Sequence record: PZ247578.1 | Reading direction: 5' to 3' (one strand) | DNA from: a phage | Length of the DNA stretch: 37,944 bases | Part shown: one piece after another, positions 8,234 through 12,127 of the stretch | How positions within the stretch are numbered: position 1 is the stretch's first letter | Layout of the letters: every line of letters starts with the position of its first letter | Program-made: the position numbers and the translations under genes | Notes under the pieces: generated by a model | Database searches by the model: none | Told to the model about the DNA's origin: nothing | Seen by the model: only the letters and a program-made list of their open reading frames with translations

Positions 8234-8253
8234 ACTATCACTGTAGGACAGAC
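8231..8253 (+). promoter_or_regulatory. Phage RNAP promoter variant (TAAACTATCACTGTAGGACAGA)
   Basis: Core with A-to-G change at -4 (CTGTAGG). Confidence 0.6.
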
Positions 8254-8289: not shown

Positions 8290-8988
8290 ATGGCTAAAGA
8301 TCAACTGAAGACTTTCACCACTCCGGTAGCTGGTATCGTTGAGCCTTACGCATGGCTGAACAAAGCAGACACCAAGTTTAACGAGCGTGGTGAACACAAA
8401 GTCAACCTGACATTCGACCTGAGCAACCCGAAGGTCCGTAAGATGATTGATGTCTTACAGAAGATTCACGACGATGCGTATGCGAAAGCACTCGCAGACC
8501 ACGAGAAGAACCCACCTCAGGTTCAGCGTGGCAAGAAGCCTATTGAACCACGAGAAGGCGACATGCCGTGGATTGAGAATGGTGACGGTACTGTTACCCT
8601 GAAGTTTAAATGCTTCGCGTCTTACCTGAAGGATGGTAAGTCCGAGCCTATCATATTACGGTTCTACGACACCGATGCTAAGTTAATCCGTGACGTCCCG
8701 AATATTGGTGCTGGCTCCAAACTGAAGGTCAAGTTTAAAGTTCTGCCGTTCAAGTGGAACGCTGCGACTGGTGCAAGCGTTAAGCTCCAGCTTGAGTCCT
8801 GCCTTCTGGTAGAACTGAAGGAGTGGAAAGGTGATGGCGCTGGTGGTGATGGTGGCTGGGGTGACGATGAAGACCTCGGTACTGGCTACAAAGCGTCAAC
8901 CGATGGTGACTTCGGGTCTGACGACTTCAGTGACGATGGTTGTGATGGCGATGACGACTCCAACTCTGGTGGCGATTACGACTTCTAA
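8290..8988 (+). CDS. Single-stranded DNA-binding protein (gp2.5 homolog), 232 aa
   Basis: GKKPIEPREGDMPW, KLKVKFKVLPFKWNAATGASVKLQLES, and an acidic C-terminal tail ending in DF, as in T7 gp2.5. Confidence 0.93.
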   Translation: MAKDQLKTFTTPVAGIVEPYAWLNKADTKFNERGEHKVNLTFDLSNPKVRKMIDVLQKIHDDAYAKALADHEKNPPQVQRGKKPIEPREGDMPWIENGDGTVTLKFKCFASYLKDGKSEPIILRFYDTDAKLIRDVPNIGAGSKLKVKFKVLPFKWNAATGASVKLQLESCLLVELKEWKGDGAGGDGGWGDDEDLGTGYKASTDGDFGSDDFSDDGCDGDDDSNSGGDYDF

Positions 8989-9440
8989 TGGCCCAATGGT
9001 CTGCAAAACGGGGGCACTCTGTGGGTGCCTACCGCTCTGGACTTGAAGCCAAGAACCAGCAGTGGCTGGAACAGAACGGCGTCAAAGCGGAGTACGAAAG
9101 CCATTATATCAACTATGTGATTCCGGCTTCCGACCACAAGTACACACCAGATTTTATCCTTCCTAACGGTATCATCGTGGAGACCAAAGGTATCTTCGAT
9201 AGTGATGACCGTAAGAAGCACCTTCTGGTACGAGAACAGCACCCAGAGTTAGACATTCGGTTCGTGTTCTCAAGTTCCCGCTCCAAGTTATACAAAGGGT
9301 CTCCGACCACGTATGGCGCATGGTGCGAAAAGAACGGCTATAAGTATGCCGATAAGTTCATCCCGGTTGAGTGGCTGCGAGAGGCGACTGTACGTCTGCC
9401 TTCAGGTATACTCATTCCCAAGAAGAAAGGAGTTAAGTGA
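8988..9440 (+). CDS. Endonuclease I, Holliday-junction resolvase (gp3 homolog), 150 aa
   Basis: YTPDFILPNGIIVETKG, DDRKKHLLVREQHPELDIRFVFSSSRSKLYKGSPTTYG closely match recalled T7 endonuclease I. Confidence 0.93.
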   Translation: MAQWSAKRGHSVGAYRSGLEAKNQQWLEQNGVKAEYESHYINYVIPASDHKYTPDFILPNGIIVETKGIFDSDDRKKHLLVREQHPELDIRFVFSSSRSKLYKGSPTTYGAWCEKNGYKYADKFIPVEWLREATVRLPSGILIPKKKGVK

Positions 9441-9910
9441 TGACTCAGAAATATAGACTTAATGTTAGTGACTACGGGTGGCCTAAGGGTACTATCGTTA
9501 CGAAATGTGCGGAAGACCCCTCACCCATCCCCGGAATTACTCTGGTAGAATCCTCAGAGCGTGGCAAATTCAAGCACGGAGCAGCAGGTTTTGACACTCA
9601 GCCTGACGGTATGTGGGGGGCGTGGGTTTCAAATGAAGATCTTGAGGAAATCTTAGAGGATAAACCGCAAGTCCTGCCAGCCTCAAGTGTCCCTCCTGTC
9701 ACCGTTAAACGTGAAGTCCTGACCATCAACAAGATTGGTGTAGGTCAGACGTTCATCGTCCACGGTAAGCCTGACGAAGTGTACGTGAAGATTAGTAACT
9801 CTCACGTCTTCAACCATAAGTTGCTCCAGATGCACACGACTGACGCACATCGCTTCCAGTCACATCTGAATCTAGTGGTCGTAGAATTGGTGGTGTACAA
9901 TGGTAAGTAA
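9440..9910 (+). CDS. Hypothetical protein (about 156 aa) inserted between endonuclease I and lysozyme; no T7 counterpart
   Basis: SD AGAAAGGAG; start overlaps the gp3 stop (TGATG); 3' end overlaps the lysozyme start by 11 nt; no motif I recognise. Confidence 0.65.
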   Translation: MTQKYRLNVSDYGWPKGTIVTKCAEDPSPIPGITLVESSERGKFKHGAAGFDTQPDGMWGAWVSNEDLEEILEDKPQVLPASSVPPVTVKREVLTINKIGVGQTFIVHGKPDEVYVKISNSHVFNHKLLQMHTTDAHRFQSHLNLVVVELVVYNGK

Positions 9911-10358
9911 GGTACAGTTCAACCCACGGTCCAGGACTGACGCTATCTTCGTTCACTGTTCGGCTACCAAGCCAGATATGGACATCGGGGTAGAGACCAT
10001 CCGTATGTGGCACAAGCAGCAAGGCTGGCTGGACGTAGGCTACCACTTTATCATCAAACGTGATGGAACTGTGGAAGAGGGTCGCCCGGTCAATGTCGTA
10101 GGGTCGCACGTTAAGGACTGGAACTCACGGTCTGTAGGCGTCTGCCTTGTAGGTGGAATTGACGCTAAGGGCAAGTTTGAAGCTAACTTCACTCAGTCCC
10201 AGATGAACTCACTGCGCAACAAGCTGGCTGACCTGAAGGCCCTGTATCCTCAGGCAGAAATAAAAGCACACCATGATGTAGCACCTAAGGCGTGTCCAAG
10301 TTTCGACTTGCAGCGCTGGCTATCTACCAATGAACTGGTAACTTCCGACCGAGGCTAA
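9900..10358 (+). CDS. N-acetylmuramoyl-L-alanine amidase / T7-type lysozyme (gp3.5 homolog), 152 aa
   Basis: DAIFVHCSATKP, WLDVGYHFIIKRDGTVEEGR, APKACPSFDL, C-terminal NELVTSDRG: near-collinear with T7 lysozyme. Confidence 0.95.
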   Translation: MVSKVQFNPRSRTDAIFVHCSATKPDMDIGVETIRMWHKQQGWLDVGYHFIIKRDGTVEEGRPVNVVGSHVKDWNSRSVGVCLVGGIDAKGKFEANFTQSQMNSLRNKLADLKALYPQAEIKAHHDVAPKACPSFDLQRWLSTNELVTSDRG

Positions 10359-10377
10359 ACTATCACCTTAGGGATGG
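10355..10377 (+). promoter_or_regulatory. Divergent phage promoter-like sequence (CTAAACTATCACCTTAGGGATG) followed by a short hairpin
   Basis: Core altered to CACCTTAGGG; GGGACA-N8-TGTCCC stem and TTTGTT at 10376..10401. Confidence 0.4.
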
Positions 10378-10423
10378 GACAATAAGTCCTGTCCCTTTGT
10401 TCGCATTCGTGATTAAGGAGTGA

Positions 10424-12127
<1,704 letters not shown>

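What the first reader, a model, noticed from the sequence alone, without database searches (positions are those of the whole stretch)
9440..9910. Unannotated ORF inserted in the DNA-metabolism cluster between endonuclease I and lysozyme
T7 gene 3 abuts gene 3.5. Here a 156-aa ORF with a good SD, coupled at both ends, sits between them and has no motif I recognise. Insertions at such sites in T7-like phages are often host-interaction or anti-defence genes.
Basis: inference. Interest (0 to 1): 0.6.

Follow-up and report, generated by a model that had tools for sequence, protein, structure and literature searches.

The report
Modular two-barrel phage accessory protein gp3.2
The ORF is a real, expressed-looking gene of K1F-like (Kayfunavirus) phages, known as hypothetical "gp3.2": a near-invariant basic C-terminal mini-barrel behind a swappable, hypervariable N-terminal SH3-like barrel, with no known function, so it is a reasonable but unproven candidate host-interaction factor.

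Summary
ORF 9440-9910 (+) encodes 156 aa, has an AAGGAG Shine-Dalgarno site, and overlaps the endonuclease I stop and the amidase start. T7, T3, KP32, BA14 and gh-1 have nothing at this junction.

The gene is not new. It is K1F gp3.2 / CR44b gp3.01 (PHROG 16385), found in about 221 phage genomes and always called hypothetical.

What I add:
- **Architecture:** an acidic N-module "A" (aa 1-72; AlphaFold pLDDT ~95; SH3-like barrel), a Pro-rich linker, and a basic C-module (aa 87-156) with the invariant signature SNSHxFN…QMHTT…RF.
- **C-module:** it is the conserved core. It stands alone as a 74-aa protein in many Kayfunaviruses and is under purifying selection (dN/dS 0.13).
- **N-modules:** at least seven unrelated N-modules (A, B, D, E, F, G, H) occur in front of it, singly or in pairs. 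They are found only at this site and are flanked by conserved DNA.
- **A-module variation:** 26 invariant scaffold positions sit next to positions with up to 17 residue types. Its alleles are much older than the flanking genes. dN/dS >1 is not shown (0.64 in independent sister pairs).

No family, structure or paper gives a function. Best guess: a non-enzymatic, modular binding protein of the middle-gene class aimed at host factors. Anti-defence is possible but untested. Interest is moderate.

The parts
8237..8249 (+). Core of a phage-RNAP promoter (ATCACTGTAGGAC), the phi2.5 equivalent. It starts the transcription unit 2.5-3-3.2-3.5.
   Evidence: Pattern search: 11 matches against 0.44 expected by chance. 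Its position matches the phi2.5 promoters annotated in T7, T3 and BA14.
8988..9440 (+). Gene 3, endonuclease I (upstream neighbour). Its stop overlaps the gp3.2 start.
   Evidence: annotated as endonuclease I in relatives.
9427..9432 (+). Shine-Dalgarno site AAGGAG for gp3.2, 7 nt upstream of the ATG.
   Evidence: Read directly from the sequence.
9440..9910 (+). gp3.2 coding sequence (156 aa plus stop), a member of the K1F gp3.2 family / PHROG 16385.
   Evidence: (E 6e-92, full length).
9440..9655 (+). N-module 'A' (aa 1-72). It is acidic (pI 4.7) and an SH3-like five-stranded barrel. Scaffold motifs are GWPxGT(I/L)VTxC…LVE…G…QPxGMWGAWV. Hypervariable positions are 10-12, 16, 28, 30, 31, 33, 43, 49, 51 and 64-67.
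9656..9697 (+). Pro-rich linker (aa 73-86, EDKPQVLPASSVPP). It is conserved among the multi-module variants with N-modules A, B, D and E (F-type variants have a different linker) and absent from C-only variants. It is the downstream boundary of the exchangeable N-module cassette. In some relatives an extra module is inserted here.
   Evidence: Alignment A1.
9698..9907 (+). C-module (aa 87-156, = PHROG 15211). It is basic (pI 9.5), beta-rich and probably an SH3-like barrel. It is the conserved core of the family.
9794..9841 (+). Invariant signature SNSHVFN(x4)QMHTT (aa 119-134), modelled as a beta-hairpin. With R138-F139 these are the residues invariant across all lineages, so this is the presumed functional site.
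   Evidence: Alignments A3 and A5. Secondary structure.
9900..10358 (+). Gene 3.5, amidase/lysozyme (downstream neighbour). Its start overlaps the gp3.2 end by 11 nt.
10358..10395 (+). Next phage promoter (AACTATCACCTTAGGGA) followed by the hairpin GGGACA…TGTCCC and a T-run. This is the downstream end of the unit containing gp3.2.
   Evidence: The same element is annotated as a promoter in CR44b.

Best explanation
gp3.2 is a non-enzymatic, modular binding protein of the middle (class II) gene set of K1F-like phages. It is made with SSB, endonuclease I and the amidase from one transcript, with translational coupling.

The basic C-terminal mini-barrel, with its invariant polar hairpin SNSHxFN…QMHTT…RF, is the functional core. 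It docks on something that does not vary among Enterobacterales hosts or among these phages: a conserved protein, a nucleic acid or a small ligand.

The acidic N-terminal SH3-like barrel is an exchangeable specificity or modulator module. Its rigid scaffold displays about 15 highly variable loop positions. Whole modules (A, B, D, E, F, G, H) are swapped by recombination between the conserved end of gene 3 and the conserved linker/C-module.

I infer that the variable module adapts the protein to variable host factors, meaning host takeover or counter-defence.

**Shown:** that it is a real gene, its architecture, predicted folds, conservation pattern, cassette exchange and transcription context.
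**Inferred:** binding rather than catalysis, a host-directed role, and any anti-defence role.
For: - **Real gene under purifying selection:** C-module dN/dS 0.13 at dS 0.76.
- **Expression context:** SD site, overlaps with both neighbours, and a single phage promoter upstream.
- **Two independent modules:** the C-module stands alone as a 74-aa protein. A, B, D, E, F, G and H occur in front of it, including three-module forms.
- **Census:** A 56, B 27, D 21, F 4 of about 221 records, always one copy at this site.
- **Fold:** A is a confident SH3-like barrel. C is beta-rich with weak SH3-like matches.
- **No catalytic family or motif:**
- **A-module variability:** 26 invariant positions next to positions with up to 17 residue types in 85 alleles. 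Pooled pairwise omega is 0.28 against 0.06-0.12 in the C-module and the two neighbouring genes, and synonymous divergence is 0.48 against 0.12-0.15 in the two flanking genes.
- **Cassette flanks:** 97% identical upstream and 82-91% identical downstream around unrelated modules.
- **Dispensable in nature:** the gene is absent from T7, T3, KP32, BA14 and gh-1, which share the same neighbours. Deletion and frameshift variants exist.
- **Host skew:** A is mostly in Escherichia phages (39 Escherichia plus 7 records named only Kayfunavirus, of 56) and in 1 Salmonella record, whereas 59 of 221 family records are Salmonella phages.
Against: - No experiment, homologue of known function or specific structural match supports any partner.
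- Positive selection on the A-module is not demonstrated: pN/pS is 0.64 in independent sister pairs and no site is individually significant. The variable positions may simply be unconstrained loops.
- The C-module is nearly universal and nearly invariant in the genus and strictly syntenic with endonuclease I and the amidase. That pattern also fits a phage-internal function.
- The host skew of modules is confounded by clonal sampling.
- TH20, the isolate lacking the C-module, is an UNVERIFIED GenBank record.
Confidence: 0.4

Rival explanations
1. Phage-internal DNA-metabolism or regulation cofactor. The small basic C-barrel binds nucleic acid, as Sso7d, KOW, Tudor or L2-type barrels do, or binds one of its co-translated neighbours (endonuclease I, amidase/RNAP inhibitor, SSB). 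In this way it tunes host-DNA breakdown, recombination, or the lysozyme-RNAP switch. The N-modules are dispensable decorations.
For: - It always sits between gene 3 and gene 3.5 with overlapping or abutting reading frames, even in the most divergent lineages.
- It is co-transcribed with SSB, endonuclease I and the amidase.
- The C-module is basic in every lineage, pI 8.4-10.1.
- It is nearly universal and nearly invariant in the genus.
- Fold matches include the RNA/DNA-binding barrels L2, EF-P, KOW and Tudor.
- The C-only form is the most common architecture.
Against: - Five other genera have the same endonuclease I and amidase but lack the gene, so it is not needed for their basic function.
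- This reading does not explain the swapping and hypervariability of the N-modules.
- Natural C-module deletions exist.
Confidence: 0.3
2. Small-molecule sponge. The C-module oligomerises and sequesters an invariant immune signalling nucleotide, as Tad2 or Acb2-type proteins do. This would explain an invariant polar pocket in a tiny non-enzymatic protein.
For: - The invariant residues are mostly polar (S, N, S, H, N, Q, H, T, T, R) and lie on one predicted hairpin.
- The C-only form is a 74-aa protein.
Against: - No Pfam family of any kind matched at E up to 1, and by my knowledge that library includes DUF2829 (PF11195), the Tad2 family.
- A sponge has no obvious need for variable N-terminal barrels.
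- Oligomerisation and ligand binding are untested.
Confidence: 0.08
3. Not a functional protein: a chance ORF, or conservation caused by a DNA/RNA element such as a promoter or RNase III site.
For: None beyond the lack of any assigned function. One sigma-70-like match at 9859-9887 is within chance expectation.
Against: - dN/dS is 0.13 with high synonymous divergence.
- The reading frame is conserved across about 221 genomes and in divergent lineages.
- The N-module fold is predicted with high confidence.
- No phage promoter lies inside the ORF.
Confidence: 0.02

Closest known systems
Escherichia phage K1F gp3.2 / EcoDS1 gp3.2 / Citrobacter phage CR44b gp3.01 (PHROG 16385; function unknown)
   Same: Full-length homologue (72-79% aa identity; 95% to the ST1749 / ST0223 allele). 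It has the same position between gene 3 and gene 3.5, the same two-module architecture and the same overlaps with its neighbours.
   Different: This exact allele is not in a 15-billion-protein collection. The differences are concentrated in the hypervariable positions of the N-module. Nothing is known about the function of any member.
74-aa 'gp3.2' of Cronobacter phage Dev2, Salmonella phage ST57 and others (PHROG 15211)
   Same: Homologous to aa 87-156 (80% identity) and at the same genomic site.
   Different: These proteins lack the N-module and the Pro-rich linker. This shows the C-module can stand alone.
SH3-like small beta-barrels (eukaryotic SH3 domains; FeoA, DtxR C-domain, KOW, Tudor, L2)
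   Different: There is no sequence similarity and no Pfam SH3-type hit. The scores are generic for the fold and imply no shared function.
Small host-directed class I/II proteins of T7 (gp0.3 Ocr, gp2, gp4.5, gp5.5, gp5.9): stoichiometric inhibitors of host proteins (from established knowledge, not tested here)
   Same: Small, non-enzymatic-looking, early/middle-expressed and lineage-variable. It is dispensable in related genera.
   Different: There is no homology to any of them: the exhaustive HMM search found only 18 clusters, and apart from a spurious repeat-protein hit (P0133) all were gp3.2-type. The modular conserved-core plus swappable-module design is not a known feature of those proteins.
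Tad2 (DUF2829) / AcrIIA7 anti-defence barrels
   Different: There is no sequence or profile match. The structural score is at background level for the fold.

Membership tests
K1F gp3.2 family (PHROG 16385) | Full-length profile match | tested here: met
   E 6.2e-92, residues 1-156 on profile positions 1-157 of 157. 255 homologues, the 120 listed being 49-91% identical.
K1F gp3.2 family (PHROG 16385) | Location between gene 3 (endonuclease I) and gene 3.5 (amidase) in a T7-like genome | tested here: met
PHROG 15211 (stand-alone C-module) | Profile match to the 74-aa family and presence of SNSHxFN…QMHTT…RF | tested here: met
   E 7.8e-40, aa 87-156 on profile positions 5-74 of 74. Invariant columns in A3 and A5.
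SH3-like small beta-barrel fold (structural class, not a sequence family) | Five-stranded barrel with SH3 topology, supported by structural comparison | tested here: met
Canonical SH3 / bacterial SH3 domain families (Pfam SH3 clan) | Significant profile match to an SH3-clan family | tested here: not met
   No Pfam hit at E up to 1. No PDB sequence or profile hit.
Tad2 / DUF2829 signalling-molecule sponges | Profile match to DUF2829 | tested here: not met
   No Pfam hit for the window protein or nine relatives.
Tad2 / DUF2829 signalling-molecule sponges | Specific structural similarity and an oligomeric ligand pocket | tested here: inconclusive
Known anti-phage-defence related proteins (PADLOC-DB) | Profile match | tested here: not met
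   No hit for the window protein. Two N-modules gave only marginal chance-level hits, E 0.002-0.003 at about 15 bits.
HNH / homing endonuclease insertions (common between T7-like core genes) | HNH or other nuclease motif | tested here: not met
   No Pfam or NCBIfam hit. Genuine HNH ORFs in relatives are separate genes.
Anti-defence protein (functional class) | Inhibits a defence system when expressed, and its loss sensitises the phage | not testable with these tools
   No literature on this gene.

The most novel reading that the evidence does not exclude
gp3.2 is a mix-and-match phage adaptor. An invariant effector barrel engages a conserved cellular or phage machine. It is coupled to a library of hypervariable, exchangeable SH3-like recognition modules that target rapidly evolving host factors such as defence proteins. 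This would be a cassette-based, protein-level diversification system in a lytic T7-like phage, conceptually akin to swapping receptor-binding modules but acting inside the cell.
Probability: 0.12. Interest if true: 0.75.

Novelty: new member of a known kind. Interest (0 to 1): 0.38.

Why it matters
Kayfunaviruses (K1F, LM33_P1, the CR44b type, and many Salmonella Typhi phages) are used or proposed for therapy, and nearly all of them carry this gene. If the C-module has a conserved intracellular target and the N-modules tune host specificity, allele type could help explain or engineer intracellular host range. It could also yield a new small inhibitor or binder scaffold. If instead the gene is a phage-internal cofactor of endonuclease I or the lysozyme-RNAP switch, it marks a genus-specific twist on the classic T7 programme. 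Either way, the modular pattern described here turns a 20-year-old hypothetical ORF into simple experiments: C-only against A+C, and allele swaps.

Tried and rejected
- **DNA/RNA element causing the C-module conservation.** Rejected: dN/dS is 0.13 with dS 0.76, and there is no phage promoter inside the ORF.
- **Internal duplication (A homologous to C).** No support: hhalign probability 0.06%.
- **Known domain in any alternative N-module.** None found in Pfam, PHROGs, PADLOC or NCBIfam. The Imm11 (E 0.08-0.13), Cas6 and DruB hits are below threshold and treated as noise.
- **P0133, a 1872-aa hit from the exhaustive search.** It is a repetitive protein whose summed weak matches fall on the Pro-rich linker. 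Spurious.
- **Positive selection on the A-module.** Some close pairs look striking (1 synonymous against 9 nonsynonymous), but independent sister pairs give pN/pS 0.64 and no site passes a binomial test. Not claimed.
- **More A alleles from metagenomes.** Only 6 loci were found.
- **Literature.** The only mention of gp3.2 is in an annotation table. Nothing appears in accessory-gene or anti-defence screens.
- **General accessory hotspot at the gene 3/3.5 junction.** Rejected: the junction is empty in T7, T3, KP32, BA14 and gh-1.

Full report
**1. Observation**

The window encodes an ORF at 9440..9910 on the + strand, 156 aa from ATG 9440 (157 aa from GTG 9437). AAGGAG lies at 9427-9432, 7 nt before the ATG. 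The ATG shares one base with the TGA stop of the upstream gene (8988..9440, endonuclease I). The last 11 nt overlap the ATG of the downstream gene (9900..10358, N-acetylmuramoyl-L-alanine amidase / T7-type lysozyme). The surrounding order is SSB (8290..8988), endonuclease I, this ORF, amidase, primase/helicase (10427..12127).

T7 gene 3 (10257-10706) does abut gene 3.5 (10706-11161). The same empty junction is seen in T3, KP32, BA14 and gh-1.

**2. Identity of the window and of the ORF**

Megablast of 8900-10500 finds 227 phage records. The best (Salmonella phage ST0223, phage ST1749, IME177) are 96% identical, and all are Kayfunavirus (K1F-like Studiervirinae). The ORF corresponds to gp3.2 of K1F and EcoDS1 and gp3.01 of CR44b. 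It is annotated everywhere as hypothetical.

It matches PHROG 16385 over its full length (E 6e-92). Its C-terminal 70 residues also match a separate 74-aa family, PHROG 15211 (E 8e-40). Both have unknown function. Pfam, NCBIfam, PADLOC and PDB sequence searches give nothing. The exact allele is absent from a collection of about 15 billion proteins.

**3. It is a real gene**

Across 30 loci the C-terminal module has dN/dS 0.13 with dS 0.76. This is comparable to the amidase (0.10-0.125) and to endonuclease I (0.05). So the conservation is on the protein, not on a DNA or RNA element.

Phage-promoter cores map at 8237 (before gene 2.5) and 10362 (after gene 3.5), with none inside the ORF. Sigma-70-like and terminator-like matches in the region are at chance level. 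gp3.2 therefore sits in the class II unit 2.5-3-3.2-3.5.

**4. Anatomy**

Alignments show three parts.

- **Pro-rich linker (aa 73-86, EDKPQVLPASSVPP).**

A and C show no sequence relationship (hhalign probability 0.06%). Foldseek against viral models finds only the family itself.

**5. Distribution and modularity**

An exhaustive HMM search of 1.84 billion representatives found only 18 clusters. Apart from a spurious repeat protein, all are gp3.2-type. The C-module is the constant part. It stands alone as a 74-aa protein, for example in Salmonella phage ST57 and in Dev2-type phages. It also follows at least seven mutually unrelated N-modules.

| N-module | Example | Source |
|---|---|---|
| A | this window, K1F | |
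| B | CHX131 | |
| D | STP-SP4 | |
| E | P0124 | |
| F | CR8 | |
| G | P0129 | |
| H | Providencia-type phages | |

Three-module forms also exist: A+B+C at 226-227 aa and A+D+C at 220 aa.

In 50,697 phage genomes about 221 records carry the family. A is in 56, B in 27, D in 21 and F in 4. Each occurs once per genome and only at this site. Even the most divergent members lie between endonuclease I and the amidase.

Unrelated N-modules are embedded in conserved DNA. Relative to the window, the B-type loci CHX131 and L013 are 97% identical over the last 150 nt of gene 3 and 82-91% identical in the linker and C-module. This fits cassette exchange by recombination.

**6. Evolutionary pattern of the A-module**

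I compared 15 phages that have all four features.

| Region | Synonymous divergence (pS) | Omega |
|---|---|---|
| A-module | 0.48 | 0.28 |
| C-module | 0.25 | 0.12 |
| Endonuclease I | 0.12 | 0.06 |
| Amidase | 0.15 | 0.10 |

So the A alleles are much older than the genomes that carry them, and the locus is a mosaic hotspot. The window and IME177 are 96% identical overall. Their gp3.2 proteins differ at 13 residues in aa 1-72 and at none in aa 73-156.

Among 85 distinct A-modules, 26 positions are invariant. These include G13-W14-P15, T18-T21, C23, D26, L35-E37, G47, G50, Q54 and G57-V63. Positions 28, 31, 43 and 64 each carry 17 residue types. Codon parsimony shows about 30 positions with only synonymous change. 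The hypervariable positions change at 1.2-3.6 times the global synonymous rate.

By topology the variable positions lie mostly in the beta1-beta2, beta2-beta3 and beta3-beta4 loops and the beta4-beta5 turn. These correspond to the RT, n-Src, distal and 3-10 elements of SH3 domains.

A conservative test on six independent sister pairs gives pN/pS 0.64, and no single site is significant. Diversifying selection is therefore plausible but not shown. A rigid scaffold with nearly unconstrained loops fits equally well.

**7. Dispensability**

The gene is absent from other Studiervirinae genera that have the same neighbours. Natural variants include:

- a C-module deletion in the isolate TH20 (an UNVERIFIED record) and in metagenomic P0132;
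- an internal A-module deletion (P0123);
- a frameshifted A-module (P0122).

**8. Interpretation**

There is no catalytic motif. The protein consists of two small barrels, one invariant basic module with a polar invariant hairpin, and a swappable acidic hypervariable module. It is expressed in the middle phase with tight coupling to DNA-metabolism genes.

- **Best explanation (confidence about 0.4).** It is a non-enzymatic modular binder. The C-module engages an invariant partner, and the N-module adapts the protein to variable host factors (host takeover or counter-defence).
- **Main rival (about 0.3).** It has a phage-internal role, binding nucleic acid or modulating endonuclease I, the amidase or the phage RNAP. 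The strict synteny, the basic charge and the near-universality of the C-module favour this.
- **Signalling-molecule sponge (about 0.08).** The evidence does not exclude it, and only background-level structural resemblance to Tad2 supports it.
- **Non-functional ORF.** Effectively excluded.

**9. Novelty and verdict**

The ORF is a further allele of a gene family annotated since the K1F genome, with no known function. The modular architecture, the fold assignments and the conserved-core plus variable-cassette pattern are, as far as the searched literature shows, undescribed. They do not establish a function.

Interest is moderate. It is a well-defined, experimentally tractable candidate in therapeutically relevant phages, but it would not surprise a T7 specialist, and the anti-defence idea remains speculative.

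Noticed in passing
window 10340-10430 (compare L002:1931-2270): The window lacks the 71-aa gene 3.7 that K1F, IME177, CR44b, ST0223 and others carry between gene 3.5 and gene 4. About 240 bp are missing, with the junction at a TAAACT microhomology, so the amidase now ends on what was the 3.7 stop codon. The promoter and hairpin before gene 4 are retained.
   Followed up: partly
window 10358-10395: The phage promoter before gene 4 is a variant (…ATCACCTTAGGGA, against ATCACTATAGGGA at the late promoters). It is followed directly by the hairpin GGGACAATAAGTCCTGTCCC and TTTGTT. A relative annotates this hairpin as a rho-independent terminator, and it lies where T3 has the RNase III site R3.8.
   Followed up: no
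window 2391, 5470, 7156, 8237, 10362, 16026, 18847, 19834, 24517, 31793, 37002 (+ strand): There are eleven matches to the phage-RNAP promoter core ATCACYNTAGGRA (0.44 expected by chance). This gives a promoter map for the window. The early and middle ones end in GGAC or GGAT, and the late ones in GGGA or GGAA.
   Followed up: partly
L006:1451-1900 (Salmonella phage STP-SP4); L007:616-1056 (phage TH20): HNH homing-endonuclease-like ORFs are inserted at neighbouring junctions in relatives: between 3.2 and 3.5 in STP-SP4, and between 2.5 and 3 in TH20. The window has neither.
   Followed up: no
L007:1498-1806 (TH20, UNVERIFIED record); proteins P0132, P0131, P0122, P0123: Natural disrupted forms of gp3.2 exist: an out-of-frame deletion of the C-module (TH20, P0132), truncation (P0131), a frameshift through the A-module (P0122), and an in-frame deletion of most of A (P0123). 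Some may be sequencing errors.
   Followed up: partly
L045:4456-4812 (Providencia-type T7-like contig): An additional acidic 118-aa ORF lies between the gp3.2 homologue and the amidase. It has no Pfam or NCBIfam hit and may be another accessory insertion at the same junction.
   Followed up: partly
window 8831-9046 (+): A 71-aa ORF (GTG start) overlaps the end of gene 2.5 and the start of gene 3 in another frame. K1F and CR44b annotate the equivalent as gene 2.55. Whether it is really coding was not tested.
   Followed up: no
C-terminal tail of gp3.2, window 9878-9910, and relatives: There are two tail variants of the C-module. …LVVVELVVYNGK overlaps the amidase start by 11 nt. …LVAVELVVYDGE in C-only ST57 ends just before the amidase ATG without overlap, while in STP-SP4 the same tail overlaps a following HNH ORF by 11 nt. 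The variants assort independently of N-module type, which suggests further recombination breakpoints inside the gene.
   Followed up: no
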